DNA of 64,000 nucleotides. Source: Candidatus Altimarinota bacterium. GTDB taxonomy: Bacteria > Patescibacteriota > Gracilibacteria > CAIRYL01. The DNA lies in contig OZ252287.1 in NCBI GenBank assembly GCA_965250085.1, forward strand, positions 768,001 through 832,000, in the 5' to 3' direction. A program made the position numbers and the translations under genes. The notes below the pieces were generated by a model, which saw nothing but the letters and a program-made list of their open reading frames with translations, was not told the DNA's origin and ran no database searches. Positions 10,907 to 23,816 of the stretch are shown in pieces (position 1 is the first letter of the stretch; every line of letters begins with the position of its first letter).

Positions 10907-11541
10907 ATTGTCTCAAAAAGATCTTCTGGAGACAATAAGAAGAAGAACCAAAAAAAGAGGGGAACAGCACATGTTTCTCAAACAGAGATAACAGAGGTGT
11001 TGATTCCCCTCTTTGTGTATACTCGAAAGGCGCTTATAAGAAGCAAAAGGACTTTCGAGCAAAAAGGATCTCACACATAGAAAAATCTATGAATGAGGAA
11101 GCTCCCTACCCCTTGGTACTCATTTTTTTCTAAGACCGAAGCACCATCGGTCTTCTATTTGAAGGCAATTCTATAGAAGAATCTACCGCGTATTTTGTTT
11201 TTGTTTTATATGTTCGAAGGCAGGCCATCCACCCCGCAAGTGCGGAGGGAGGCTACTCTTCGGTGGTTCCGGCTCTCACAGTCGAGAAGCCATCGGAGAG
11301 TAGGGAGGAAGGAACCCGCTAAACACATTCAAATGCGAACGAGCTCCTTCCTCCCCCCAAAGATATGAGGAAGCAAAAGAGAAAAATATGAAATGTAAAA
11401 GATCTTTTTTATTTGGACGAATCCCCTCATTATATCAAAAAAAAAGAGCCTTGAGAAGACCCTTTCTTTTTTCATCACAAAAAGGAGTGGGAAGCCATCA
11501 AGGGGTTTGGTATCATGACTGCACCCTTGTCTTCCCACTTC
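10907..11541 (+). ncRNA. Candidate large structured RNA / hairpin array (unassigned)
   Basis: About 11 consecutive stem-loops with A-rich linkers; several GU pairs favour the + strand. Confidence 0.45.
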
Positions 11542-11574
11542 ACTCGCTAGTAATTATATACTAAAATTATAAAA

Positions 11575-12162
11575 ATGTCAAACAACTTGGGTGTTCTTAT
11601 CCTTATTCTCGGCCCATCTGGAACTGGCAAAGGGACCACTATTGATCTCCTGCAAAAGCGTCATCCAGAATGGGTGTTCCCTCCCTCTGTCACTACTCGG
11701 CTTCCTCGTCCTGGGGAAAACGAAGGTGCAGTATATAATTTTGTATCCCTTGAAGAATTTGAAAAGAAAAAATCTATAGGTGAATTCTTGGAATGGGCAT
11801 GTGTTCACGAGTCTGACTATTATGGAACATTAAGATCAGAAATTTTGCCACCACTTGAAGAAGGAAAAATTGTCATTCGAGAGGTAGATGCACAAGGGTT
11901 TCTTTCTATTATAGAAAATTCAGAGATTCCCAGAAAAAATGTAATTGGAATTTTTTTATTCCCGTCTTCATCAGAAGAGCTTATTAATCGCATTACCAAA
12001 AGAGCACCCATTTCTCCGTTAGAACTTTCTCGAAGAATGGAAAGTCTGCAAAGAGAAATTGAAATCGCGAGCGCATGTGATTTTCAAATTCAAACTGAAG
12101 AAGGTGAATTAGCGCTTCCTGCAAATGAAATAGAACAAATTATAAAGCTCAAAACGCGTTGA
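11575..12162 (+). CDS. gmk: Guanylate kinase
   Basis: GPSGTGKGT, TTRLPRPGE, YYGT. Confidence 0.93.
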   Translation: MSNNLGVLILILGPSGTGKGTTIDLLQKRHPEWVFPPSVTTRLPRPGENEGAVYNFVSLEEFEKKKSIGEFLEWACVHESDYYGTLRSEILPPLEEGKIVIREVDAQGFLSIIENSEIPRKNVIGIFLFPSSSEELINRITKRAPISPLELSRRMESLQREIEIASACDFQIQTEEGELALPANEIEQIIKLKTR

Positions 12163-12197
12163 AAAATCTGTCCAAACTCGGCAAAATGATAAGGTGT

Positions 12198-12272
12198 TCG
12201 GGAGTCGCCAAGTGGTAAGGCAACGGGTTCTGGTCCCGTCATTCGGGGGTTCGAATCCCTCCTCCCGAGCCA
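12198..12272 (+). tRNA. tRNA-Gln(CTG)
   Basis: TCGGGAG/CTCCCGA acceptor stem, ACGGG-TTCTGGT-CCCGT anticodon arm, TTCGAATCC T-loop, CCA. Confidence 0.97.
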
Positions 12273-13804
12273 TTCAAGATTTTTGCTAAAAATAGAGAGT
12301 TGAAAGGTTCGTTAAGCTCTATTTCAAGCACCTTTCCGCCATGTGCAAAAATGTTTAGAACTGCCATTTCTGCGATTTCAAGTTTTTTATCACCGGAGAA
12401 GGTTTTATAGCTTGTAGACAGGCTTTTTAGCATGTTTAGAAATTTTTTAAAATCAGGTATAAATTTTGTTTCTTCTTTCTCCATTTTGCTTAGATCTTTG
12501 TTATAGTTTTTGATCTCATTTGTAAGTTCGGTTTTCTTTCGTCTGTATATTTTTCGCTGACTGGTATCATATTCTTTTCGATATAGCAGATGGTTTTCTT
12601 CAAGGTTGGTGAGATCGTTTTTTGCTTTTGTTCTTGAGCCTCTGATTCTTTTCTTTTCCTGTTCTCGTCTCTCAAACTCATCTTCAGAGTGTTTTCGAGC
12701 TGCTTTTATGTATTCGCGATACTTCTCTTCAGTGAACTTGGGACTAATATGCTTGAACTTACGATCAAGAGCCTCAACTATGTCTTTTGCTTGTATAGCC
12801 TTCAATTGAGACTTTGTGGGCACAGCAACTTTTTTCTTGTGGGCATTGTCTACAACATATCGGAGATATTTTACCTTTCCGTTGTTAATAATCTGTGGCT
12901 TATATTCTATGTTTGGAACGATCGCGTCGAAAATTTTTCCTCTCAAGGGTTTATCTACTTTTATATACTGACCACCGCTTCTTTCCATGCGCTGAGCTTC
13001 CCAATACTCTTCTTCCGTAATCATAGCTGGGAAATTATACTTTTCCCGAAGATCAACTTCCGAGTCTCCCTTCAGGTTCAAAATTCCACAATAAATCTTG
13101 TCTTTGAACATCTTGTTTATTTTTTGAGAAGTCATGTACTGTTTTTTTCTCGCTTTTTTTCCTGAGATCAGTTCTCGATAAAAACCTCTTTTATTAAGCC
13201 AATCGGCAATTCTTGGTTCTTTTTCTCCTGCTAACCTTTTTTGCCATGCTTGTTGTATGAGACGCCAAAATTTTCCTTTCGCGTATCTCTCTTTTTTAAT
13301 ATCATATCCAAATTTTGTTCTCCCCAGCGGGTGCCCTTCCTCATGTTTCCTTATATTTGCTTTCTTTACATGCGTACTGAGGTTGTCAGAATAATGTTTT
13401 GAAAAAACAAAGGATATTCCAAGGAGCATTTTACCGGTATCGTCTTTACTAAACTGTTGAGTACAGAACCTTAAATCAACAAGTTGCCCACTGTCTAAAA
13501 GGTCTATAATTTCACCTCCTTCAAACATGTTTCTTGCAAGACGATCTGGATGCCATGCGATAATGCCATCTATTTTTCCTGCTTTTATATCCTTGATCAT
13601 CTTTAGAAACTTAGGTCTTTGCCCGGACATTTTGGCAGACTTGCTTTCTTCTATTACGTTTACAACGGTAAGTCCATCTTTCTCTTCTAGTTTTTTGCAA
13701 AAATAAATTTGATCTGGGATTGAAGCAGCTTGCCGCTCCTTTTCTTCACTCGATTTTCGAGCGTAAATTACATACCGATCAGCTTTTTCTTGTAAAAAAT
13801 CCAT
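12239..13804 (-). CDS. Large serine recombinase (integrase)
   Basis: YARKSSEE catalytic Ser, WHPDRLARN, recombinase domain, coiled coil; stop codon lies inside the tRNA on the antisense strand. Confidence 0.93.
   Translation of the reverse strand: MDFLQEKADRYVIYARKSSEEKERQAASIPDQIYFCKKLEEKDGLTVVNVIEESKSAKMSGQRPKFLKMIKDIKAGKIDGIIAWHPDRLARNMFEGGEIIDLLDSGQLVDLRFCTQQFSKDDTGKMLLGISFVFSKHYSDNLSTHVKKANIRKHEEGHPLGRTKFGYDIKKERYAKGKFWRLIQQAWQKRLAGEKEPRIADWLNKRGFYRELISGKKARKKQYMTSQKINKMFKDKIYCGILNLKGDSEVDLREKYNFPAMITEEEYWEAQRMERSGGQYIKVDKPLRGKIFDAIVPNIEYKPQIINNGKVKYLRYVVDNAHKKKVAVPTKSQLKAIQAKDIVEALDRKFKHISPKFTEEKYREYIKAARKHSEDEFERREQEKKRIRGSRTKAKNDLTNLEENHLLYRKEYDTSQRKIYRRKKTELTNEIKNYNKDLSKMEKEETKFIPDFKKFLNMLKSLSTSYKTFSGDKKLEIAEMAVLNIFAHGGKVLEIELNEPFNSLFLAKILNGSGGGIRTPE
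12262..12272 (+). repeat. attL core CTCCCGAGCCA
   Basis: Last 11 nt of the tRNA; identical to 21642-21652. Confidence 0.8.
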
Positions 13805-13848
13805 AGGTAAATTTTAAATTATTTTGAATTTTAAGGTAAGCTATAGCT

Positions 13849-14202
13849 ATGAAACACTACGAAGACCTCACCGATAAAGAAGGAAAAGAGGAATACCATC
13901 AGCAGGTTAGCAAAGACATGAAGCTCTTGGAAGAGAAGGGGATTGTAACCAAGAAAAAGGAAAATTTTGAGGGAAGACCGCTTTGGGAAACCTGCGTTCG
14001 TCCGGATTTTATTGTGAAGGCGATAGAACTCGCAAAGAAAGAAAAGGGAGATCCCAACAAGGTAATTATCAATGGGCAAGAGGTGTTACTCAGTTTTTTG
14101 CCATTCTTATTCTTTCTCAATGTAACCGACGAAGAGCAACATCGGAAAGCAGAAGAGTATTTGAAACAGCTCATGGCTAATGCAAAACTCGCAAGTCAAT
14201 AA
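13849..14202 (+). CDS. Hypothetical protein divergent from the integrase
   Basis: 117-aa ORF starting 44 bp from the integrase start; no recognisable motif. Confidence 0.6.
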   Translation: MKHYEDLTDKEGKEEYHQQVSKDMKLLEEKGIVTKKKENFEGRPLWETCVRPDFIVKAIELAKKEKGDPNKVIINGQEVLLSFLPFLFFLNVTDEEQHRKAEEYLKQLMANAKLASQ

Positions 14203-14346
14203 GCAAGGGTAGCCTTTCGCCACGTGTTCGCTTGTGTGCCGACAACTCCTCTTTTTCGGAGATGATTGCCACCTTTGGCAAAAACGCGACATAGCGAAAA
14301 CGTGTGACACGTGTGCAAATTGAAGAAAATGCTGAAACTTACTTGT

Positions 14347-14760
14347 TCACTTGTTCATTCCTGAATTAAGAGGTTTGCTTCCATCAAAGTCTTGCATGAT
14401 TTTTTCCAAATTCTCTGGATCTCCCTGCATGGAAAATACTACATTCCCGCGCGTTTGGAGATTGATTTGGAATATGTCTTCGAAGTCCTCCTGCACGCCC
14501 TTAAGGGCAGTAAGACCATTTTTGAACTTCGCGGTGCTATCGAATCCCTTGATCACGAGTCTGCCATATTTAGTCTGCATCTCATAGTCTATAGACTCTT
14601 TTAAATCGATTAGAGTTGGTTCATCTGACTGGTCTTGAAGCTCTGTCACCTGTGAATCTTCGAGTCTGCTGATAATTTCTTGGATATCTGGAACGGACGA
14701 CGGTGAACATCCCGTCAGGATTGCAGCCATGATGACGACTACTGCTATAAATGGGAACAT
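14347..14760 (-). CDS. Hypothetical lipoprotein
   Basis: MFPFIAVVVIMAAILTG-C lipobox. Confidence 0.65.
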   Translation of the reverse strand: MFPFIAVVVIMAAILTGCSPSSVPDIQEIISRLEDSQVTELQDQSDEPTLIDLKESIDYEMQTKYGRLVIKGFDSTAKFKNGLTALKGVQEDFEDIFQINLQTRGNVVFSMQGDPENLEKIMQDFDGSKPLNSGMNK

Positions 14761-14978
14761 GAGGAAAATATAAAATATACACAAAATGGGACGACCCTTT
14801 GAGCAGTCTCCCATCAGCTCTTGCGAACATCCGAAAGGCTAGAGCCGCCCCTCTTTATGCCCTTTTAGGCAAGAGGAAGCTGCTCGCAAAAAGCCAATGA
14901 TGATAGGAAACTGCTCAGCTACATACTACGAAAAAATCTTACTGGAGAGCAAGCAGTTGTTTTTAGAGCTCGCCGAGA

Positions 14979-15006
14979 TTGACATATTTTAGAAAAAGTG
15001 TATTAT
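14979..15006 (+). promoter_or_regulatory. sigma70-type promoter
   Basis: TTGACA-16 nt-TATTAT. Confidence 0.6.
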
Positions 15007-15022
15007 GAGATACTGTCTTACA

Positions 15023-16448
15023 GGGAGCGTACCAATTTGGGGACCTGTTCTGTCATTTTTTGCGGTTGAGATTGATACAAAAAGGAATCCAATCATGAGA
15101 ATGGAAGTCGAAGCCAAATAGGTTTTTTGGATGAGCAGCTTGAAGAGGAGATTGACCATTCAAGTGCTTGAATTTTGTTTTACAGTCGGTGAATTTCCAG
15201 AATCTTCTCCTGAGAATAAGAGCATTTATATAATTGGCAGCAGTTTCTTCATGCTCAAACCCACGAATACCACTGAGCCTAATCTCCACAGAGGTGCTGT
15301 GATAGCCTTCAATGAGATTTGTAGTTCTTGGAATATCAAGCTCAGGATGGTTGATAGAGGCAATAATCAAATCTCTTTTCTTGTAGTAGTTATCATAAGC
15401 ATCTCGTATTTTTTGAGCATGTGGATATTTCTTTAAATCCATTCCAGCAATAGCGATATTGAGCTCGTCTTCTAATTTATTGAGGTCTTCTGTCGTCATT
15501 GCCGACCAAAATATTTTCTGTAAAATATGCTGAACAGTAATCAGGTAGTGGTATTCATGTTCAATATCTGCTAATTGATTGCTCAATTCCACAGCCTTAT
15601 TCTTATTATACTTGTGAGAAGATATGAGAATGCTCTTACCGAGATGAGCTAGTTTTTTCTCCAAGGAAGATATTTTTCTTTTGGCACTGTTCACCTTCAT
15701 ATTCCTATCTAATGCAGCACTATAGTGAGTAAGGCAGAGCTGAACAATAACATCGGGAAAGATTCTCTTCGCCACACTCATCGTCTCTCCCATGCTCTCA
15801 TCACAAACAACCACCTTCAGCGGATAGCCAATCTCCCTGAGCATTAAAAATCCTTGCTCAATATCATGCATATTCTCTGAAGCTGCCAAAATATGAACAG
15901 GAATATCGTGAGATTCATAATCCATGAAGGATATGTCTACAAGCCCCTTCTTTGTCTTCGCTTTTCTTCCGGTGACAGTCTGCTTGGAATCCTTTACTCC
16001 AATACACTTACCATCAACCAAAACAATCCCACAATAATTCTGAGGACACATCAAACGAGTCAGCTCATTGGAATCAATTAGTTTTGGCGTTGTCTTGTTT
16101 ATGATTTTGCAAATCGTCTTTTTATCCATCTCATTTTCTACGGCGAGAATACGGCATGAGTTTCTGTTGAGATGAGCCTTCAGGATTTCTTCTGCTTTTT
16201 TGTTTTTGTCGTTGAGAGTTATTTTCTTGCCGCAATCATGGCAGTAAATACGAAGATGGTTCCGGTGACGCCCTTTTCTTATAGTGTTGAGTCCTTCACA
16301 TACAGGACATCGAAGTTTTTTTTGTATTTGTCATAAATAAATTAAAGAAAAAAAGAAGAAATATTCTACTTTATCTCGATAACTTTCTCCAGAGCTTTAC
16401 CTCAAGCCGTTATTCTTAAATCACAGGCCCCCAAATTGGTACGCTCCC
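15023..16448 (-). mobile_element. IS256/Mutator-like insertion sequence
   Basis: 26-bp TIRs GGGAGCGTACCAATTTGGGG(A/G)CCTGT with 1 mismatch; 9-bp TSD TGTCTTACA at 15014-15022 and 16449-16457. Confidence 0.92.
15053..16334 (-). CDS. DDE transposase with N-terminal Zn ribbon (+1 shift or non-ATG start needed)
   Basis: VLVDGK, VVCDES, QLCLTH (CxxH), TTNLIEG; the frame extends upstream as KKLRCPVC...YCHDCGKK to 16330. Confidence 0.85.
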
Positions 16449-16611
16449 TGTCTTACAAGACTTTTGTTTTGTTCTTTAAAAACATCACTTTTGCCTACTG
16501 GTTGGCTTTTCTGCATTGAATAACTTCAGGAAATTCAACTGGTAGGCAAAAACGGCAGGCAGGAATAATTGATTTCTGTCCAACGATCCACACAAACGAA
16601 AGAGGCTAGAA

Positions 16612-17409
16612 ATGAAAGCGACGAACCGCTCCTCCCTCCTCACCACCCTTCTCGTACTGCTCGTTCTCGGTCTGGGCGCTTGCGCCACGACCGACCAACA
16701 GCAGCCGAGCGCCATTCAGAAGCTCGTCTTCCAATTCACCCCCAGACTGGTCGCCGAGCACGTCACCCCCGGAGTCTACGAAGTCCTGGCAAAGAATCTC
16801 GTCATGCAGTACGACTGGCGAGATCCGGAGAGCCCGGATCCGATGAGTTCGCGCTTCCAGATCGCGAATTGGAACATCCGAGGCGCCTATTACCGCGCCC
16901 ACGATGTCAACTGGGATTACGAGACCAGGACTGACCCGCGAAAAACCAAGCTCCCCGAGATGATCAACCTCGTCGTCGACAACGCCCGCTTCTTGCCCGA
17001 CGACTTGGTGGTCGGGCAGGCGGAGATCCTCAAGGAAGAGATCTCCGTTCTTGCTGCGGGAAACGACAGCTTCGATGCTGAAGAGGTGCTGGGCTCCTAC
17101 GCCGACAACGCGGAGCACTGGGCGGGGCTGATCGAGCTGTATCTCTCGGACAGGTACGGACTCATGGCGCTCGCTCGCACCATGGATCCGATCTACGAAA
17201 GCTACGATCGGCATCGCATCCGCACCGCGGAGGAGGAGCTCTACGATAACGAGGTCTACGGTCACCTGTTCAAGGAACAGCGTAGCAGGGACTTCGTCTA
17301 TCTGCTCCTCTGGTGCGAGCGCCGCGCCGTCAAGAGCTCGGGTGTGGACAATCTGCGCGCAATCGCCAACGCCCTGAAGCTCGGGGCGGAGACATTTCGC
17401 AGCAGCTAG
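16612..17409 (+). CDS. GC-rich hypothetical lipoprotein
   Basis: MKATNR..LLVLLVLGLGA-C lipobox; AGAGG RBS; about 60% GC in the lines counted. Confidence 0.8.
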   Translation: MKATNRSSLLTTLLVLLVLGLGACATTDQQQPSAIQKLVFQFTPRLVAEHVTPGVYEVLAKNLVMQYDWRDPESPDPMSSRFQIANWNIRGAYYRAHDVNWDYETRTDPRKTKLPEMINLVVDNARFLPDDLVVGQAEILKEEISVLAAGNDSFDAEEVLGSYADNAEHWAGLIELYLSDRYGLMALARTMDPIYESYDRHRIRTAEEELYDNEVYGHLFKEQRSRDFVYLLLWCERRAVKSSGVDNLRAIANALKLGAETFRSS

Positions 17410-17447
17410 TGGAACGCGACCAACCTGCCTGCCAACGGTTGCTACCC

Positions 17448-17585
17448 ACACTTCTCCGGTGCTAGGACTCGCTTCGCACATCCCGTGCAACAGCTGAGAC
17501 GGCGCACTGGCAAAAGTGTGTCATCTCAGCTATTCCTTGACCTCTGCAAAGAGTGTTGAGGGATGCGATTCCTAGCCCGGAGTGT
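17448..17585 (+). ncRNA. Four-way-junction structured RNA element (unassigned)
   Basis: Basal stem CTCCGG/CCGGAG + GCTAGGA/TCCTAGC + TCGC/GCGA, three arms, GU pairs, GCAA tetraloop. Confidence 0.55.
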
Positions 17586-17604
17586 CCTCACTCTGGGCTT
17601 TTTT
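17574..17604 (+). terminator. Intrinsic terminator
   Basis: AGCCCGGAGTG-TCCT-CACTCTGGGCT followed by a T-run. Confidence 0.75.
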
Positions 17605-18227
17605 CAATCTATTTTTTTATTCCTCTTCCAAAACGCCATCACCCCACCTGTACTCCGATATCCCAACTTCTCCGCAATCTCCCGCCATTTCTTCCTTCCC
17701 TTCCGCATCGCCCGGATACTTGTAATCTTCTCTCCGGAAAGAGTACTGCGCTTCTTTGGTCTACCGAGAATAACACCTTTTCTTCGGGCTGTTTCCAATC
17801 CCGCTTTGGTACGCTCGGAGATGATATTTGCCTCAAACTCTGCAAATATGCCCATCATCTGGAGAAACATCTTGCCCTGAGCGGTAGTCGTATCGATCTT
17901 GTTTTCAATAAAAATTATTTCTTTGCCATTCTCCTGAATCCGATTCACCACATTCTGCAAATCGATGTTATTCCGGGCAAGCCGGTCAATCTTCGTACAG
18001 ATCAGGATATCAAAACAATTCGTCTGTAACGTCTCACGTAACTTCGGGCGTTTCTTCAAATCCTTGGCACTGGCTTTCTCAATCACCACTCTCTTGAGCT
18101 TTATATGTTCATACTCACAGTATTTCCGAATCTGCTCTTTCTGGTGGTCGATCGAGTGCTTCTGTTTGTTCTCATTCGTACTGATCCGCACGTACCCTAT
18201 AGCCTGAGTTGGAGTCGATTGCCTCAT
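17604..18227 (-). CDS. Small serine resolvase/invertase
   Basis: GYVRIST, KIDRLARN, FAEFEANIISERTKAGL, GRPK, C-terminal HTH. Confidence 0.93.
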   Translation of the reverse strand: MRQSTPTQAIGYVRISTNENKQKHSIDHQKEQIRKYCEYEHIKLKRVVIEKASAKDLKKRPKLRETLQTNCFDILICTKIDRLARNNIDLQNVVNRIQENGKEIIFIENKIDTTTAQGKMFLQMMGIFAEFEANIISERTKAGLETARRKGVILGRPKKRSTLSGEKITSIRAMRKGRKKWREIAEKLGYRSTGGVMAFWKRNKKID

Positions 18228-18278
18228 TATAAAGCGAAAAATCGATCACGTGTTACCTCTGTAGCGACTGCAAGTCAA

Positions 18279-18300
18279 CTCATAAACGGTCGTTTATGAG
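18279..18300. promoter_or_regulatory. Putative res/crossover-site palindrome
   Basis: CTCATAAACG-GT-CGTTTATGAG, about 50 bp upstream of the resolvase. Confidence 0.55.
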
Positions 18301-18339
18301 ATAAGGAAATGAGGGTTTATGCCTAAAAATAGGCAGATA

Positions 18340-19244
18340 TAGCTAACTCAAAATAAATTGATCTAAAATAATGCATGAGAAAAGAGATCAGAAACGGAAC
18401 ATCGTTTCTGTTTTCTGACAGCTTTTGCTTGACCCCATTTATGTTCAATAGGATTGAGGTCGGGAGAATAGGGAGGGAGATAAAGAAGGGTGTGCTCTGC
18501 ATCCTCAAGAGCTTGTTTCATGTCTAAACGTTTGTGGAACATGGCGTTGTCCATGACGACCACAGAGTTAGGAGGAAGCTGTGGTATGAGATCTTCAGTA
18601 AGCCAGGCATAAAAGACATCTGAGTCAATGTTACAGTCAAAAAGGCAAACAGTGAGCAAATGGTTGTTTATGATAGCTCCAATAACATTGACTCTCCCTC
18701 TGGCATGCCAATCTTGGACTCCGTAGCACCTTTCTCCTCTTGTGCTGTATCCATGAGTTCTCGGCATATCATGGGCGAAACCACTTTCATCAAGATACAC
18801 AATAACTCTTCCTTCTCTTGTATATTTTTCTATCTTCCTGAGAAATGCTCCCCTGAGTACTTCATCTGCTTTGGGATGATACAGAGTTTTTTTTATGACT
18901 GACTGCAAGCCTGCGTAAAGCATACAGAATGCCATTCGGACTCACTCCAAATTTTTTCGCTCTTTCCCATTGGTAATCATCTGGATATTGTTTCACATCC
19001 TTCTTTAATTTCTTCATATCTATTTTTGTTGCTGGCTTATTTCTTTTTAAACACGGTTCTATCCGCCTTGCCCATCGGAATAGCGATGCTATTCCCACTC
19101 CAAATCTTTTACTGGTTTCTAAGAATGTAAGTCCTTCCTTTCCTTTGATCTTCATTACTTGCTGACGAAATTTAAGTGGATATGACATATCGAATGGGTG
19201 AAAGAATATCACCCACAGTATATCATATTATCCTGAGTTAGCTA
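18340..19244 (-). mobile_element. IS630-family insertion sequence
   Basis: TIR TAGCTAACTCA at both ends, each flanked by TA (18338-9, 19245-6). Confidence 0.9.
18363..19188 (-). CDS. IS630 transposase in two frames (HTH ORF 18862-19188, DDE ORF ending 18363)
   Basis: MSYPLKFRQ HTH; YLDESGF, VMDNA, LPPYSPDLNPIE; frames overlap at A8 run 18887-18894. Confidence 0.9.
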
Positions 19245-19287
19245 TAGATACGATCGAGATGCCAGAAATGAAGTGAACTTCTGAACA

Positions 19288-19482
19288 TCATTCCTGCTCT
19301 TCGTACGCTTTGTTCATATTCACCAGCAGGATGTTCAACATGTTTACCAAATCCTGATCATCATTTTTTTCATACTCCATTATCGTCCGGATTACTTCGT
19401 CGCGAAGTCTTAGCAGTAACTCTGTTCGTTCCTCAGATACAAGTTTTTTGAGTTCGGCGAGAGTGAACAGCTGATTTTTCAT
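19288..19482 (-). CDS. Small hypothetical protein
   Basis: 64-aa helical ORF with ATG start. Confidence 0.45.
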   Translation of the reverse strand: MKNQLFTLAELKKLVSEERTELLLRLRDEVIRTIMEYEKNDDQDLVNMLNILLVNMNKAYEEQE

Positions 19483-19967
19483 AATCTCGTGGAATACATC
19501 AAAACACTACGTATTTGGTTTTATACAGTCAATAAAACAAATTTGAGCTTTATTCTAAAACCCCGAAAAGTGTCACTTTTTGTAACATTCAATCGAGAAA
19601 AGTAGCTGAAACAAGCCATTTTCATATTTTCTCTGAACAGCTATTTCTTAGAAAGAAACAACAGAATGCTATAAAGAAGTTTCAAAATTGCGAATTTTTG
19701 GCTTTTTGAAGTCAGAAAAACAGATTTGTGCTTTATCTAGAAACCCTGATAATTGTTCATTTTTGTACACCTGAATCAAAGAAAGTAGCTTAAATAAGCC
19801 ATTTTATATTTTCTCAAAAGAGCAGATTTTTCTATTGTTTTACGAAAGAAAGCCAAAAAAACGGTGAAAAAGTGTGAAAACGGTGAAAAAATGTGTGATT
19901 TTTTGTGACGGGATTTTTCTAAAAAACCTATATTGATTGACTGATTTCCATCTTCACCTTTAAGGAA

Positions 19968-20354
19968 TCAGAAAGGCAGATCACCCTTCAAGTATTCTTT
20001 TGCACGATTGTAGTTCATGTCTGTATTGTCTTTCTTTTTGTAATAAATTTCGAGAAATTTAACTTTCATTTCTTTAGGATAGAATGCGTAGATTACTCTG
20101 ATCCCGCTTCTATTTCCTTTCCCTTTCAGAGATTTGCAGGCAAATTTTTTAATTTTGCAGATCTCAATTGTTTCGTAACAATACCCGGAGACTCTCTGAA
20201 CGCTGTGATTATCAATACCTTGAACATGGAAAAGTTCTATGGCATTTCTTTTCACAGTTTCTAAATCTTCTCCCAGAGTGGAGTATTTTTTGAGCAGCCG
20301 TTTCAGGTCTCGTTCAAACTCATGAGTCTGATTATACTGTATTTTCTTCTTCAT
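19968..20354 (-). CDS. RelE-like toxin
   Basis: FERDLKRLLKKY...KGNRSGIRVIY...LEIYYK; overlaps the 3' end of the upstream antitoxin gene. Confidence 0.75.
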   Translation of the reverse strand: MKKKIQYNQTHEFERDLKRLLKKYSTLGEDLETVKRNAIELFHVQGIDNHSVQRVSGYCYETIEICKIKKFACKSLKGKGNRSGIRVIYAFYPKEMKVKFLEIYYKKKDNTDMNYNRAKEYLKGDLPF

Positions 20355-21108
20355 ATTGCCGTACTGAGGTTTGTGGAGTGCGATAGAAAACAGCCTCATA
20401 ATCAATAGGCTTTCCGTCTTCAGCTGTAATCCATGGCACGTCCTCGTGAGAAAGGTCACTCAACTCCTTTGCACTTTTTCCAGAGAGTCGACCTAAAACG
20501 TTATCTATATGTTTGATTTCTCTTGCTGAAAGAAAATCGATATTTGGTTTTTTGATTGGCAAGTATTTTGTTTGATCATATTTAAAATACTTTGTTTTTA
20601 CTTCTTCTATTTCTTCATCTGTAATCATTTCATCGACAATTTTACGAAACGCTATCGGAGTAGGACCGAGGCGATTTTTAATGTAAACAGCCCCAACCAG
20701 TTGCTCCTCAAACTTTTCGTAATAATCAAAGTCACAAAAATACAGCAATTTATAGAGAACAGTTTGTCCTATGTTCGGCAATGCTCCTACTTTCTGTGTT
20801 ATGTAGAGCAATACTTGCTTGAATTTTTCTACGTTTTCCTGGGGAACGCTAATTCGGATAGCTGCTTCTAGAGACTTTTTGTCCTTAGTCTTTTCTAAGT
20901 CAACTTCGTATTTCTCTTCTTTTTCGTTTAACAACGTTCCCAATGAGATATCAAAAATTGTAGCAAATTTCTTTGCTTCGGAAAGAGTCAACTCTCTTTC
21001 TCCAGAAAAAATCTTTCCAACAGTTGGTCGCGAAACCCCCAACTCTTGAGAAAGAAACTCCTGAGAGAAACCTTTCTTCTTGCGAAGTTTTTCTAAAAAT
21101 GTATCCAT
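20332..21108 (-). CDS. XRE-HTH + Panacea (DUF4065/SocA) antitoxin
   Basis: N-terminal HTH (LRKKKGFSQEFLSQELGVSRPT); LYKLLYFCDF, GP, LSDLSHEDVPW. Confidence 0.85.
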   Translation of the reverse strand: MDTFLEKLRKKKGFSQEFLSQELGVSRPTVGKIFSGERELTLSEAKKFATIFDISLGTLLNEKEEKYEVDLEKTKDKKSLEAAIRISVPQENVEKFKQVLLYITQKVGALPNIGQTVLYKLLYFCDFDYYEKFEEQLVGAVYIKNRLGPTPIAFRKIVDEMITDEEIEEVKTKYFKYDQTKYLPIKKPNIDFLSAREIKHIDNVLGRLSGKSAKELSDLSHEDVPWITAEDGKPIDYEAVFYRTPQTSVRQYEEENTV

Positions 21109-21123
21109 TTGGCAAGGGTAAAT

Positions 21124-21360
21124 TTAGCCGCGAGGCGGGAATTTATCTCTACTACGAGGATAGGTATTCTTTTCATGGATTACGCCATCTCGACGCTGTA
21201 CCACCATCTCCAAACCTTGATTTTTTGCTACCTCACGAGCAACTTCTCTTGCGTCTTGCTTGTCCTCAATAACGCGAATTGCCCGCTCAGCTCCAGGTTT
21301 GTGAACTTTCCAGTCGCCATGACCGGCGGGTGAAACCCAAATTTGATTATTATTAGTCAT
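21124..21360 (-). CDS. DUF2188-like small protein
   Basis: WKVHKPGAERA...AREVAKNQ...RRDGVIHEKNTY...PPRG. Confidence 0.8.
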   Translation of the reverse strand: MTNNNQIWVSPAGHGDWKVHKPGAERAIRVIEDKQDAREVAREVAKNQGLEMVVQRRDGVIHEKNTYPRSRDKFPPRG

Positions 21361-21504
21361 AAAAAATGTTAATTACATCCTCAGTTTATCGTTTGTAATT
21401 TTTTTTGTCAATAGCTTTGTAAAACTTTTTTACAAGAGACTTAAAAGACCCTACCAGAGATAGTGTTTAGAATCCAGAACGGCTAATCATTTAATAATCG
21501 GATT

Positions 21505-21642
21505 TTATAGCTTCACACCTGCAAAATCCCGCTTCACTGAATACGCTTTTTTTGAGAACTCTGAGAACCTCTGTACCAAAAGACCTGCACTTTTGCGGTT
21601 TTCCTGCATATACTGCATCAAGTGTTTAGCAACTGCATCCAC
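21505..21642 (-). other. Predicted alternative C-terminal segment of the integrase (45 codons + TAA)
   Basis: Stays in frame with the integrase after an in-silico attL x attR join. Confidence 0.6.
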
Positions 21643-21652
21643 TCCCGAGCCA
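21642..21652 (+). repeat. attR core CTCCCGAGCCA
   Basis: Identical to tRNA-Gln 3' end 12262-12272. Confidence 0.8.
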
Positions 21653-21735
21653 ATGCTATTTTATGGCTTTAAAGTAGACTAGACGAAAAATTAGCAGCAA
21701 CTGTGCTAAGTATTTTTGGGAGAAGTAATAATTTT

Positions 21736-22935
21736 TTATGTTATTTTCGTTAGTGGTATTTTTATACTTCCAGTACGTTTAAATAAGTGCTTTGATGTTT
21801 TTGGCGGAAAAAGATTTTTGCTCATCCCCATGACTACTACTTCACCTTTTGTTACATTCTCATTCTCTCTCCAAGAGGATACCTGTACTCCTTTGCTCTG
21901 ATAATCTACAAAATGAACAGGTATAGTGGAAAACGCCATTGCCTTCAAGATAGCATATCTATGATGCCCATCAAGAATAATAAGAGTTTTTTGATCAACA
22001 ACAATAGGTTCAACATACCCATTTATTTGAATATCTTTAGAAAGCTTATTGCAATATATTTTATCTATTTGTTCATGCTGTTTAAGTTTTTTTATAGGGA
22101 CTAATTCAACTTTTTTTTTAGATATATAGTGTATTTTTTTTTCTTGCTTTGAGAATAGTAATGAAGCATTTTTTAAATCAGTATCATTATCGATCTCATA
22201 CCATTGTATATCTTCAACCAAGTGCGCATAGATTCCTGTTGAAGATACTAAAGACTCAAAAGCTACTTCGTAATAATCATTTTTCCCATGATTGCTCATA
22301 TAACTTTCTAAAGTAGGTATAAAATATTTTTCAAAAAACTGCTTTTTAAACAAATATATATTAATAGTTTTATATTTATCTATAAAATAGTTTTTTGTTT
22401 TTTCTTGATTCTTTGAACCAATAAAACTTTTTATTTTGCTAGTTTTTTCATCCATTGTAATTACAGTTCCAGAAATAGCTTTGTCATATTTCGCTACCAA
22501 AACTAAATTCTGATGATTGGCATCCAAAAGAGGTGTTAACATTTCTTTTTCAAACACAAGATCTCCTTCAAGGCAGATAACATCATTTTTTATATAATCT
22601 TTTGTAAGCCACAAAGAATACATATTATTGGTTGAAGCGTGATCCTTATTGAGCACATACATTATTTTCATTCCTTTATAAAATTTTCCAATATGCTCCT
22701 TTATTTTTTCAGCTTTATGCCCCACCACAATTATTACTTCTTCAATTTTTTTTAATTCAGCAAGATGATTTAAAGCTCTTTTTATAATGGTTTCACCGCT
22801 AACCTCAACCATGACCTTGGGAATGTTCTCTGTCAGTGGCAGCAATCTGCTTCCACTTCCGGCTGCCAAAATTATAGCCTGCATTTTATTTGTTTTTTCT
22901 GTTGGCTTTCCTTTCTTTAAGTTGTGATTTGACAT
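21736..22935 (-). CDS. LicC-like cytidylyltransferase fused to a ParB/SerK-like kinase domain
   Basis: ILAAGSGSRL..PK, LEGD, WYEIDN; C-terminal LKQHE, ILDGHHR, VDY, FPPKTSKH. Confidence 0.8.
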   Translation of the reverse strand: MSNHNLKKGKPTEKTNKMQAIILAAGSGSRLLPLTENIPKVMVEVSGETIIKRALNHLAELKKIEEVIIVVGHKAEKIKEHIGKFYKGMKIMYVLNKDHASTNNMYSLWLTKDYIKNDVICLEGDLVFEKEMLTPLLDANHQNLVLVAKYDKAISGTVITMDEKTSKIKSFIGSKNQEKTKNYFIDKYKTINIYLFKKQFFEKYFIPTLESYMSNHGKNDYYEVAFESLVSSTGIYAHLVEDIQWYEIDNDTDLKNASLLFSKQEKKIHYISKKKVELVPIKKLKQHEQIDKIYCNKLSKDIQINGYVEPIVVDQKTLIILDGHHRYAILKAMAFSTIPVHFVDYQSKGVQVSSWRENENVTKGEVVVMGMSKNLFPPKTSKHLFKRTGSIKIPLTKIT

Positions 22936-22938
22936 AGG

Positions 22939-23526
22939 TTATATTAGTAAAGTAGTAACTAAAATAAGATTAATTATCATAATAAATATTATAAAATAAG
23001 TACTATATTCCTTCTTTATAAGAATGCTCGAAATCATCATAATGCCAAAGAATATGTATAAGATTGATAAATAAACCGGAACTATATTAAGGAGAATGGC
23101 CGTATAAATCAGATGCGAAGGAGGAGAAATACTGACTCCCTTTCTATAGCCTGAAGCTGTTTTTTCAGCATTGAACCTGGCAAGCCTATATATACCGCAA
23201 CCCGCCATGAACACTGATGATATTAGTAAAATATTATTATCAAAAACTATAGCAATAATGAATGGGGGCGCAATAAAAGCCATCACATCAACAAGGGAAT
23301 CTAAGTCTGTCCCAAGAGGAGAAAACATTTTAAATTTTCGTGCTACGTATCCATCTGCAATATCAAATACGTCTGTAATCGTTAAAAATATAATTGCTAT
23401 GATAATTTGATCATTCAAAATCAAATAAATTCCAATTAATGCGAATAGAAGCCCTCCAAAAGTTATCACATTTGGGATTGTTGCGTTGGGAAATCTTTTG
23501 TTGATTGGAAACAATAAACTTTTCAT
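22939..23526 (-). CDS. CDP-alcohol phosphatidyltransferase (PssA-like)
   Basis: DIADGYVAR...G.DLDSLVD signature; RLARFN. Confidence 0.9.
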   Translation of the reverse strand: MKSLLFPINKRFPNATIPNVITFGGLLFALIGIYLILNDQIIIAIIFLTITDVFDIADGYVARKFKMFSPLGTDLDSLVDVMAFIAPPFIIAIVFDNNILLISSVFMAGCGIYRLARFNAEKTASGYRKGVSISPPSHLIYTAILLNIVPVYLSILYIFFGIMMISSILIKKEYSTYFIIFIMIINLILVTTLLI

Positions 23527-23816
23527 ATTTCTTAAAAAATAGCCCTCCCTTATTAAAAAAATAAGGGCGCCAGCCATAGTAACACAATTGATGCCAAAAT
23601 GGGATGGTGATTCCCTACGGCAATAAAAAATTGAGGGTTGTGATGGAGCTTCGGCTTGAACCTGAAAACCACATTGTGAAGGCAATGCTGAAGAAGCATG
23701 TCTTTAATAATCCAAAAAAACTAGATCTCAGAAGGGAAATGCCTTGAATCTCTGGAAATGGGAGATCTTCTCATTCCATCTTTCTAAGCATTTAAGATGA
23801 CAAAGGCTCCGTTGTC

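What the first reader, a model, noticed from the sequence alone, without database searches (positions are those of the whole stretch)
12239..21652. Serine integrase gene split by its own att site: integration would swap its C-terminus
Seen in sequence: the integrase ORF crosses the 11-bp core CTCCCGAGCCA and ends ...KILNGSG-GGIRTPE* on the antisense strand of tRNA-Gln. The same 11 bp recur at 21642-21652. Joining the two ends in silico keeps the frame and gives ...KILNGSG-VDAVAKHLMQYMQENRKSAGLLVQRFSEFSKKAYSVKRDFAGVKL*, a 45-aa tail with its stop at 21505-21507, while the tRNA and its CCA are restored. Established: att sites inside genes are known for archaeal SSV1-type tyrosine integrases and for the repressor of mycobacteriophage BPs, and large serine recombinases normally control direction through their C-terminal region plus an RDF. 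Inference: the element makes two integrase isoforms, one from the circle and one from the integrated state, which could act as a self-encoded direction or stability switch. I know of no characterised case for a large serine recombinase.
Basis: partly seen in the sequence, partly recalled or inferred. Interest (0 to 1): 0.88.

Follow-up and report, generated by a model that had tools for sequence, protein, structure and literature searches.

The report
Integrase gene that integration itself rewrites
A small mobile element sitting in a tRNA gene carries a serine integrase whose gene runs across the element's own joining site, so the free circle encodes a conserved 45-residue tail that the integrated copy loses, and this layout is shared by a whole family of such elements.

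Summary
tRNA-Gln(CTG) is at 12198-12272. The 11-bp core occurs only at 12262-72 and 21642-52, in the window and in the whole 1.37-Mb genome. The 521-aa large serine recombinase (12239-13804, minus strand) ends 7 codons into the antisense tRNA. Reading on from the second core copy, in frame, gives a 45-aa tail.

This is a family trait, not a curiosity of one locus. In 59 related loci the integrase ends inside an antisense tRNA, and 49 of them use the window's codon phase. A tail of 42-50 aa lies at the far end of at least 15 further elements, always in frame. It is homologous within clades. Synonymous sites are saturated while the protein is kept (pN below pS in 90 of 91 pairs). It also turns up as 64 database clusters of orphan mini-ORFs. 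Two relatives of the window's integrase carry tails homologous to the window's.

So two isoforms are encoded, and the circle-only tail is under selection. That it acts as a direction or stability switch remains inference. Structure and complex predictions were uninformative, and the public contigs show only the integrated state.

There are precedents: Dehalococcoides DsiB (a serine recombinase, noted in 2011 but never characterised) and Mx8 IntP/IntX (a tyrosine recombinase). I rate this a new variant of a known kind.

The parts
12198..12272 (+). tRNA-Gln(CTG), intact, CCA encoded; the integration target (attB side)
   Evidence: ARAGORN
12262..12272 (.). attL core: 11-bp identity with attR, equal to the last 11 nt of the tRNA
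12239..13804 (-). Large serine recombinase, integrated isoform, 521 aa; the last 7 residues and the stop are encoded by the antisense tRNA body
   Evidence: the fold of the relative P0014 matches full-length serine integrases
12283..12290 (.). P-arm half of an 8-bp inverted repeat (TTGCTAAA), inside the last integrase codons
   Evidence: in the reconstructed attP the best symmetry centre lies in the core, with arms at 16-23 nt on either side
13849..14202 (+). 117-aa ORF divergent from int ('orfY'), no Pfam, NCBIfam or PHROG family; conserved at the same place in the related element L033
   Evidence: 40% identity, E 1e-21
14347..14814 (-). 155-aa ORF with a hydrophobic N-terminus, no family; cargo
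15023..16448 (-). 1426-bp insertion sequence with a 358-aa transposase (weak IS256/IS1249 matches); a secondary insertion into the element
   Evidence: separate contig at about double depth; second identical copy in the genome
16449..17560 (+). High-GC patch (56-61% against 40% for the genome) with a 265-aa ORF, no family
17604..18227 (-). Small serine recombinase (resolvase/invertase type, 207 aa)
   Evidence: Pfam Resolvase E 1e-39
18363..19212 (-). IS630-family transposase in two overlapping ORFs (HTH_Tnp_IS630 plus DDE_3)
19968..21108 (-). HTH-SocA/Panacea antitoxin-like gene (258 aa) overlapping a 163-aa ORF; a candidate toxin-antitoxin pair
21124..21360 (-). DUF2188 protein, 78 aa; the first gene after the tail on the circle
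21505..21641 (-). Circle-only integrase tail: 45 codons plus the stop (the first codon GTG takes its G from the core at 21642). In frame with int across attP; homologous to the tails of L033 and P0014
21625..21632 (.). P'-arm half of the 8-bp inverted repeat (TTTAGCAA), inside tail codons
21642..21652 (.). attR core, the second copy of the 11-bp identity; host DNA resumes at 21653

Best explanation
Window 12273-21652 is a 9.4-kb integrative element inserted into the 3' end of tRNA-Gln(CTG) by its own large serine recombinase. Later insertions brought in two IS elements and a high-GC patch. The recombinase gene runs across attP. On the circle, or next to another copy in a tandem array, it encodes the catalytic, recombinase and zinc-ribbon-like/coiled-coil domains followed by a conserved tail of about 45 aa. 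Strand exchange in the core cuts the gene after ...NGSG and fuses it to the antisense tRNA, giving a tail-less protein with 7 arbitrary residues. The tail codons are stranded, without a start codon, at the far end of the element. Shown by sequence: this geometry, its codon phase, and protein-level selection on the tail, across a family of small (3.5-9.4 kb) tRNA-targeting elements found mostly in Patescibacteria/CPR-type genomes. Inferred: the tail can only be translated from the excised or tandem form, so it must act there. It most likely tunes the attP x attB reaction or the stability of Int, and its loss makes the integrated copy behave differently, with less re-excision or a changed response to a directionality factor. 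My odds: two isoforms are really encoded and the tail is functional, 0.85; the isoforms differ in direction or stability, about 0.45.
For: Geometry in the window.

The reconstructed attP has an 8-bp perfect inverted repeat placed 16-23 nt either side of a centre inside the core.

Family pattern: 50 of the 71 metagenome loci with a complete int 3' end have an antisense tRNA overlapping the stop. Of 59 int-tRNA overlaps, 49 share the window's codon phase, 10 have phase 0 and none has phase 1, across Pro, Val, Ile, Met, Ala, Leu and Gln tRNAs.

A second recombinase of this kind in the same genome ends antisense in tRNA-Ile in the same phase.

Tails: an HMM built from 8 tails found further tails in a six-frame search. 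All were on the int strand, upstream of int, and ended at a stop. All 14 loci (13 elements) that have a tRNA anchor are in frame with int through the shared GTCG or a longer core.

Window clade: the window tail against the L033 tail (also 45 aa) was reached by 0 of 5000 shuffles. P0014 against L033 gave 0 of 5000, and the window tail against P0014 gave 30 of 5000.

Selection: pooled pS is 0.71 (saturated) and pN is 0.41. pN is below pS in 90 of 91 pairs.

Database: the tail profile hits 64 clusters among 1.84 billion representatives, all 41-159 aa long. In 59 of 64 the tail ends at the C-terminus, and 44 of the 53 with enough upstream residues have [S/G/C]-R (the codons xGT CGx of the core) just before it.

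Natural int-tail fusions exist: L099, L088/L089 (also P0185), L044, P0074, P0014 and the partial P0164.
Against: No functional data of any kind.

AlphaFold2 models of two natural fused proteins give confident bodies (mean pLDDT 82) but tails below 50, so nothing places the tail on the enzyme.

The only public data for this genome are contigs from one sample. They show only the integrated junctions.

The window's element carries two IS insertions and foreign high-GC DNA, and may no longer move.

One close relative, L032 (52% identical integrase), has only 7 in-frame codons after its candidate attR core.

The phase-0 relatives have short tails where they could be reconstructed (L012: 14 aa counted from the first residue of the core copy). 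Overlap alone therefore does not imply a long tail.

No tail was found for the genome's second recombinase of this kind.

The related elements are kin, so the frame counts overstate independence.
Confidence: 0.6

Rival explanations
1. Compaction without a switch. attP simply sits at the 3' end of int. Both isoforms are equally active. The tail is kept for a reason unrelated to direction, such as solubility, translational coupling to the next gene on the circle, or because its first codons double as the P' half-site.
For: The tails are predicted to be unstructured. In the Pro-tRNA clade a conserved small ORF overlaps or closely follows the tail's stop in 11 distinct elements, which fits coupling. 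The 8-bp P' arm lies in tail codons. In more distant relatives and in L032 the tail is short.
Against: Conservation extends over all of the roughly 45 residues, including the C-terminal Y-x-Y end, far beyond a half-site of about 25 bp. Synonymous sites are saturated while the residues are kept. Tail length is held at 42-50 aa in 18 aligned tails.
Confidence: 0.28
2. The tail is an independent small gene at the far end of the element, for example an excisionase-like factor, and its being in frame with int is incidental.
For: Gene callers predict it as a separate protein of 41-159 aa in 64 clusters. In the window a GTG at the core boundary could act as a start codon.
Against: The sequence upstream of the tail is host DNA that differs from site to site. 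In-frame stops lie 1-8 codons upstream of the core in L056, L100, L049, L068, L048/L091 and L063/L090; the absence of any start codon between stop and tail was checked by eye for L056 only. All 13 anchored elements are in frame with int, where one third would be expected. The codons of the core (xGT CGx) precede the tail in 44 of 53 orphans. Natural fusions to int exist.
Confidence: 0.05
3. Suicide or lock model. The tail is essential for any activity, so the integrated int is dead. Excision happens only where a tandem neighbour or a resident circle supplies the full-length enzyme.
For: Tandem arrays restore full-length int in the chromosome: L044 has int fused to the tail of a second element that itself ends in tRNA-Pro, and L099 has two different copies of the small ORF flanking int. 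McMurdie et al. raised the same idea for DsiB.
Against: The tail-less protein keeps every recognised LSR domain. Integrated int ORFs are intact in the 50 metagenome loci with a complete 3' end and an antisense tRNA, which would be unexpected for dead genes unless the insertions are all recent.
Confidence: 0.15
4. Chance repeat or assembly artefact. The 11-bp repeat and the open frame are coincidental, or the two ends were joined wrongly through the two-copy IS.
For: The IS at 15023-16448 has a second, identical, inverted copy 500 kb away, and short-read contigs break at it. Open runs of 48 or more codons are common in this genome (24% of positions and frames).
Against: The core is unique to these two places in the genome. 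The tail is homologous to tails of two related elements. attP shows inverted-repeat symmetry centred in the core. The same architecture recurs in dozens of unrelated contigs.
Confidence: 0.02

Closest known systems
Dehalococcoides ssrA genomic islands: serine recombinase DsiB (McMurdie et al. 2011, BMC Genomics 12:287; PMC3146451, passages read)
   Same: A large serine recombinase of about 540 aa lies at the island edge, reads towards the target RNA gene, and 'always' overlaps attL at its 3' end, with its stop outside the island. Tandem islands occur. The authors speculated that it may be fully functional only on the circle or next to an adjacent island.
   Different: The target is tmRNA (ssrA), with insertion in the T-loop and a 20-bp repeat, not the acceptor end of a tRNA. 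The authors reported the overlapping part as divergent and in the passages I read did not show a conserved circle-encoded tail. A small serine recombinase, DsiA, is adjacent in an operon; here the 207-aa resolvase lies 3.8 kb away among IS debris. Sequence kinship of the window's integrase to DsiB was not tested because I held no DsiB sequence. No function has been tested in either system.
Myxococcus phage Mx8 IntP/IntX (review PMC6070905, passages read; the primary papers Tojo 1996 and Magrini 1999 were not held)
   Same: attP lies inside the int coding sequence, and integration creates a recombinant gene with a new 3' end. According to the review the change modifies integrase specificity rather than inactivating it. 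That the target is a tRNA gene is my recollection.
   Different: Mx8 Int is a tyrosine recombinase with different chemistry and arm-type sites. By my recollection, a much larger part of its C-terminus is replaced.
Archaeal SSV1-type integrases and RAP44-like Riemerella phages
   Same: The att site lies inside the integrase gene, so integration splits it. For RAP44-like phages the 19-bp att is at nt 25-43 of int and the target is tRNA-Ser (PMC12169736, passages read). For SSV1 I rely on recollection; the review PMC8371274 was seen only in a search listing.
   Different: These are tyrosine recombinases, and the split is near the 5' end, so the integrated gene loses its start or N-terminus instead of swapping a C-terminal tail.
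Integration-dependent immunity of mycobacteriophage BPs (recalled; Gordonia phage note PMC4929511 seen in a listing)
   Same: Integration rewrites the 3' end of a phage gene and thereby changes the protein's stability and activity.
   Different: The rewritten gene is the repressor, not the integrase, and the recombinase is of the tyrosine type.
Canonical large serine integrases (phiC31, Bxb1, A118/LI)
   Same: Same domain order and fold. Foldseek's top hits for the P0014 model are full-length serine integrase cryo-EM structures with E values from 3e-18 to 1e-11. att sites are short.
   Different: In those systems attP lies outside int and direction is set by a separate RDF acting on the coiled coil (textbook knowledge, recalled). 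The window's clade has lost the zinc-binding cysteines. The target is a tRNA gene, which is unusual for serine integrases.

Membership tests
Large serine recombinase (serine integrase) | N-terminal resolvase-type catalytic domain with the nucleophilic serine | tested here: met
   Pfam PF00239, E 3e-24, residues 12-157. R16 and S18 are invariant in the 21-sequence alignment.
Large serine recombinase (serine integrase) | Recombinase domain (PF07508) after the long alpha-E helix | tested here: met
   PF07508, E 3.4e-7, residues 182-273. PHROG 95 'integrase', E 1e-45, covering residues 6-495.
Large serine recombinase (serine integrase) | Zinc-ribbon domain with an embedded coiled coil | tested here: inconclusive
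   PF13408 is not detected in the window protein, and the four Cys present in more distant homologues are absent from the window's clade. The AlphaFold2 model of the clade member P0014 nevertheless has the beta-strands and a long helical hairpin at 358-445 and matches full-length LSR structures.
Large serine recombinase (serine integrase) | Short attP with inverted-repeat arms around a central crossover dinucleotide | tested here: inconclusive
   There is an 8-bp perfect inverted repeat 16-23 nt from a centre inside the 11-bp core, but only 13 of 26 positions are symmetric overall. The crossover dinucleotide has not been determined.
Integrases whose gene contains attP (Mx8 IntP/IntX type) | The att core lies inside the int ORF, so integration replaces the C-terminus | tested here: met
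Integrases whose gene contains attP (Mx8 IntP/IntX type) | Tyrosine recombinase chemistry | tested here: not met
   The protein is a serine recombinase. It works like Mx8 Int in this one respect but is not a member of that family.
Integrases whose gene contains attP (Mx8 IntP/IntX type) | Both gene forms are expressed and differ in activity | not testable with these tools
DsiB-type ssrA island integrases | [quoted passage not shown] | tested here: met
DsiB-type ssrA island integrases | Integration into ssrA (tmRNA), with an adjacent small serine recombinase DsiA in the same operon | tested here: not met
   The target is tRNA-Gln. The 207-aa resolvase at 17604-18227 is not adjacent to int.
DsiB-type ssrA island integrases | Sequence kinship with DsiB/CcrB | not tested
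   I held no DsiB sequence. The NCBIfam CcrB model matches only the catalytic domain, at 53 bits against a cut-off of 900.
Integration-dependent immunity (BPs type) | attP inside the repressor gene | tested here: not met
   attP lies in int. The HTH gene at 20332-21108 is not crossed by the core.

The most novel reading that the evidence does not exclude
A widespread family of very small tRNA-targeting elements in CPR-type bacteria uses the recombination event itself to edit its recombinase. The conserved tail of about 45 aa is present only while the element is excised, or tandem, and acts as a built-in sensor of topological state. It sets direction or commitment without a classical RDF, or by gating access of a small partner protein (orfX or orfY). 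That would be a self-contained directionality switch in large serine recombinases.
Probability: 0.4. Interest if true: 0.85.

Novelty: new variant of a known kind. Interest (0 to 1): 0.68.

Why it matters
Large serine integrases are prized genome-engineering tools because they are strictly directional, yet reversing them needs a separate RDF that is hard to find. Here the protein's own C-terminus is rewritten by integration, and the removed piece is under purifying selection. That offers a natural experiment on how the end of the DNA-binding domain influences direction, stability or partner binding. Both isoforms and all four att sites can be read directly from the sequence, so the question is testable at once. 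It also shows that the small genomes of Patescibacteria-type bacteria host many 3.5-9 kb integrative elements built on one module. It explains a class of orphan mini-ORFs in databases (64 clusters) as stranded integrase 3' ends. Finally, it gives a sequence rule for finding the far end of such islands: look for the tail, in frame with the core.

Tried and rejected
Empty-site test in relatives. No genome of the same genus is held. The best integrase match in 40 relatives was 31% identical. The gene to the right of the island (21736-22935) was not found with this query in the 11 other genomes of the family. The pre-insertion attB therefore could not be checked.

Excision evidence. The 4 runs that hold the stretch come from one sample and are kept only as contigs. 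Laid on 11500-22500, they cover attL and attR in the integrated arrangement, break only at the two-copy IS, and show no joints. Contigs drop rare variants, so this says nothing about circles or empty sites.

Structure. AlphaFold2 models of two natural int-tail fusions (the L099 ORF and P0014) gave tails with pLDDT below 50. Complex prediction with the L056 integrase body against the tail alignment returned 'no answer', with scores 0.00 and 0.00. Neither result is evidence for or against binding. The protein atlas gave no usable hit for the window's tail.

Word-index searches for more natural fusions. A search restricted to the tail region of the L099 ORF found nothing. The tail profile searched against longer proteins found only P0185. 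Both searches are weak by design.

Adding tail-only peptides to a full-length alignment misplaced them (A2), so that alignment was not used for folding.

Direct-repeat search for the far end of the genome's second recombinase of this kind. An 11-mer at G000:333366 lies in a GC-rich, RNA-like stretch, and its in-frame reading does not look like protein. I took it as chance. Neither tail HMM finds a tail elsewhere in the genome.

The genome-contig scan with the single protein returned only 11 distant loci. The viral-contig scan returned 6 distant loci, none informative.

Literature. Searches for a described case in large serine recombinases found only McMurdie 2011. In the passages found for my terms, the tycheposon preprint mentions large serine recombinases at tRNA sites but no overlap with the gene.

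Full report
OBSERVATION. ARAGORN places tRNA-Gln(CTG) at 12198-12272 on the + strand, with its CCA encoded. The 11-mer CTCCCGAGCCA is the tRNA's 3' end (12262-12272) and recurs once, at 21642-21652. None of 100 shuffles gave two matches. The whole 1,368,807-bp single-contig genome contains only these two copies.

The minus-strand ORF 12239-13804 encodes 521 aa with Pfam Resolvase (E 3e-24) and Recombinase (E 3e-7) domains. It ends ...KILNGSGGGIRTPE*, and its last 7 codons and stop are the antisense of the tRNA's acceptor and T arm.

Read in the same phase from the second core copy, the minus strand is open for GSG plus 45 further codons, to the stop at 21505-21507. The other two frames close after 10 and 8 codons. 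Length alone is weak evidence, because 24% of all positions and frames in this coding-dense genome have 48 or more open codons ahead.

THE ELEMENT. The 9.4 kb between the cores carries these features on the minus strand unless stated:
- int;
- a divergent 117-aa ORF (13849-14202, + strand);
- a 155-aa ORF;
- a 1426-bp IS (15023-16448);
- a patch of 56-61% GC with a 265-aa ORF (+ strand) of no known family;
- a 207-aa resolvase-type recombinase;
- an IS630-family transposase in two ORFs;
- a 64-aa ORF;
- an HTH-SocA/Panacea antitoxin-like gene overlapping a 163-aa ORF;
- a DUF2188 gene;
- the tail.

There are no phage structural genes. The IS has a second identical, inverted copy at G000:1284368-1285793, and public short-read contigs break at it.

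The reconstructed attP has an 8-bp perfect inverted repeat (21625-21632 and 12283-12290) placed 16-23 nt either side of a centre that falls inside the core (CTCCCG|AGCCA). This is the layout expected of a serine-integrase attP. Overall symmetry is only 13 of 26 positions.

A FAMILY TRAIT. The word-index search gave 918 homologues with E up to 1e-3, and the best 120 were listed. Their C-termini very often read like antisense tRNA, for example ...GRGERTRTFDL...GGGEIRTPAPG and ...GFEPDL. Named hits come from Peregrinibacteria, Patescibacteria, Microgenomates, Woesebacteria and CPR2.

With DNA in hand I could count (80 metagenome loci, 11 GTDB loci). Of the 80 metagenome loci, 8 integrase ORFs run off the contig. 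Of the 71 scored as having a complete 3' end, 50 overlap an antisense tRNA called by ARAGORN. Of the 21 that do not, 5 have fewer than 70 nt left after the stop and 9 show a T-loop-like motif near the end.

I anchored each overlap on the T-arm geometry. Of 59 overlaps, 49 put the first base of the CCA antisense at codon position 3, as in the window. Ten put it at position 1 and none at position 2. The 59 comprise the 50 metagenome loci, L106, seven GTDB loci and one paralogue in the window's own genome. The targets are Pro, Val, Ile, Met, Ala, Leu, Gln, Asn and Asp tRNAs. The ten phase-0 cases are the distant GTDB relatives and a group (L034-L036) with in-frame TGA where relatives have Gly.

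The window's own genome holds a second recombinase of this kind at G000:361065-362683. It ends ...SYNGGPGKT* antisense in tRNA-Ile(GAT), in the window's phase.

THE TAIL IS CONSERVED CODING SEQUENCE. I searched upstream of each integrase for a second copy of the tRNA end and read on in the integrase frame. This gave tails of 46-51 aa for L056, L093, L072/L077 and L106, where the other frames closed after 1-34 codons. These tails resemble the C-termini of integrases that do not end in a tRNA (L099, L088/L089, L044, P0074).

An HMM of these 8 tails was searched against all stop-to-stop pieces of every locus in six frames. It found tails in L100, L065, L049, L083, L068, L052, L098, L094, L063/L090, L048/L091 and L066. 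All were on the integrase strand and upstream of the integrase, and all but the weakest hit (L066, split over two stretches) ran to the stop (E from 5e-14 to 4e-4).

For all 14 loci (13 elements) with a tRNA anchor, the tail frame equals the integrase frame across the shared core. That core can be as short as GTCG. Nine of these were found without regard to frame. The inferred element sizes are 3.5-6.9 kb.

The 18 aligned tails are 42-50 aa long. Their consensus is xATxxELLxPLxxSILxxWDxxxFDExLL...YNxxYEY. Codon comparison of 14 of them gave pooled pS 0.71 (saturated) against pN 0.41, and pN was below pS in 90 of 91 pairs. The conservation is therefore at the protein level and is not a DNA-site footprint.

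THE WINDOW'S OWN CLADE has a different tail type. P0014 (558 aa, 42% identical to the window's integrase) carries a natural tail. L033 (51% identical, inserted in tRNA-Val) has a 45-aa tail 4.5 kb upstream of int, in frame through T-GGTGG-x-CGA. That tail was found by a two-sequence HMM in the six-frame search (E 0.0025).

In Smith-Waterman comparisons against 5000 shuffles, none reached the observed score for the window against L033, none for P0014 against L033, and 30 did for the window against P0014. The shared motif is K-H-[FL]-[IM]-x-[FY], and the tails end in a basic residue followed by a hydrophobic one.

The divergent 117-aa ORF next to int is also shared with L033 (40% identity, E 1e-21). 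The integration module of this clade is therefore orfY, int, attP and tail.

One counter-example: L032 (52% identical) has a 9-bp candidate core 7.9 kb upstream, but only 7 in-frame codons follow GGR.

DATABASE SCALE. The tail profile searched against 1.84 billion cluster representatives gave 64 hits with E up to 1e-3, 12 of them at 1e-10 or better. All are 41-159 aa long (median 61). In 59 of 64 the tail runs to within 2 residues of the C-terminus. Of the 53 with at least 3 residues before the tail, 44 have [S/G/C]-R there. Those residues are the codons xGT CGx of the core, in the integrase phase.

These hits are stranded 3' ends called as mini-genes. One, P0164, is a partial natural int-tail fusion. 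Full-length fusions are rare among what I retrieved. At least L044 is a tandem array: the fused integrase is followed by a second element whose own integrase ends in tRNA-Pro. L099 is probably also tandem, because two different copies of a small ORF flank int. McMurdie et al. envisaged the same situation for DsiB.

PARTNER GENES. In the Pro-tRNA clade a conserved small ORF ('orfX', pieces of 57-282 aa, mostly 57-134) either begins at or just after the tail's stop (11 distinct elements) or lies directly upstream of int. No homologue was detected in the window (same search).

WHAT COULD NOT BE SHOWN. AlphaFold2 models of two natural fusions have confident bodies (mean pLDDT 82.5 and 82.4). Foldseek matches the P0014 model to full-length serine-integrase cryo-EM structures with E values from 3e-18 to 1e-11. 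The tails, however, are below pLDDT 50, with two short helices of low confidence. The complex prediction gave no verdict. Public data for this genome are contigs from one sample and show only the integrated junctions. No close relative allowed an empty-site check.

MECHANISM. Shown by sequence:
- Strand exchange inside the core necessarily converts a gene encoding body plus conserved tail into one encoding body plus a few tRNA-antisense residues (3-32 residues in the family).
- In the integrated state the tail codons lie behind host DNA that differs from site to site, with in-frame stops just upstream of the core in six elements.
- The tail is nevertheless under purifying selection.

It follows that the tail is used when the element is excised or tandem. 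I infer that it modulates the integrative reaction or the fate of Int. It directly follows the last elements of the second DNA-binding domain, near the base of the coiled coil where, in studied integrases, direction is controlled (recalled knowledge). Its removal would then make the resident enzyme behave differently. I put about 0.45 on a real difference in direction or stability. The alternative of compaction or translational coupling without a switch gets about 0.28, and a lock model in which the short form is dead gets about 0.15.

COMPARISON AND NOVELTY. The layout has been noted once for a large serine recombinase, DsiB of the Dehalococcoides ssrA islands, without analysis of a circle-encoded tail and without experiments. 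It is characterised for the tyrosine integrase of Mx8. Related splits occur in SSV1-type and RAP44-like tyrosine integrases (SSV1 recalled).

What is new here:
- the scale, with dozens of elements and many tRNA targets;
- the fixed codon phase;
- a conserved tail of about 45 aa under selection;
- the explanation of 64 clusters of orphan mini-ORFs;
- the conserved small partner genes.

I file it as a new variant of a known kind. It is interesting to specialists because it makes control of direction by the integrase's own C-terminus directly testable.

Noticed in passing
window 15023-16448; second copy at G000:C1:1284368-1285793 (outside the window): A 1426-bp IS with a 358-aa transposase (weak IS256/IS1249 matches, no Pfam hit) is present as two 100% identical, inverted copies 500 kb apart. 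Public short-read contigs break at it and it shows about double depth. Recombination between the copies would invert a third of the chromosome and separate the two ends of the island.
   Followed up: partly
window 16449-17560: A patch of 56-61% GC in a 40% GC genome holds a 265-aa ORF (16612-17409, + strand) with a lipoprotein-like N-terminus and no Pfam, NCBIfam or PHROG family. It lies on the same public contig as the island's right half, so it is not an artefact of this assembly alone. Origin unknown.
   Followed up: partly
window 17604-18227 (-): A 207-aa resolvase/invertase-type serine recombinase sits inside the island between the high-GC patch and the IS630 element. Dehalococcoides islands pair DsiB with a small serine recombinase, DsiA, but here the two genes are not adjacent. 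Whether it partners the integrase is open.
   Followed up: no
window 19968-21108 (-): An HTH plus SocA/Panacea-domain protein (258 aa) overlaps a 163-aa ORF of unknown family. This is a candidate Panacea-type toxin-antitoxin pair that could stabilise the element.
   Followed up: no
G000:C1:361065-362736 (outside the window): A second large serine recombinase (27% identical to the window's) ends ...SYNGGPGKT* antisense in tRNA-Ile(GAT), in the same codon phase. Its far end and tail were not found.
   Followed up: partly
G000:C1:about 333366-333700 (outside the window): A GC-rich stretch that looks like a structured RNA is followed by a tRNA-like 3' end (T arm plus acceptor, on the antisense strand) that ARAGORN did not call. 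It may be a tmRNA or another RNA gene, or an att remnant. It was not run against Rfam.
   Followed up: no
loci L034-L036; proteins P0012, P0015, P0016: These integrase relatives (43-44% identical) have in-frame TGA, or W in the database proteins, at positions where the others have Gly. That fits hosts that read TGA as Gly. This group overlaps its tRNA in a different codon phase (0 instead of 2).
   Followed up: partly
loci L056, L093, L100, L049, L065, L068, L052, L098, L099, L106, L063 and others: A conserved small ORF ('orfX', shared motif ...V.T..SV.T....A......M.D..GKRIT...) starts at or just after the tail's stop, or directly upstream of int. It is always co-directional with int. It is a candidate partner or directionality factor for the Pro-tRNA clade.
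   Followed up: partly
L044:720-8729 and L099: Tandem arrays at one tRNA put the outer element's integrase in frame with the inner element's tail, which restores a full-length gene in the chromosome.
   Followed up: partly
window 21736-23685: The host DNA just right of the island has very low GC (25-34%). It encodes an NTP-transferase protein of 399 aa and a CDP-alcohol phosphatidyltransferase. The 399-aa gene was not found in the 11 other genomes of the family, so this flank may itself be variable.
   Followed up: partly
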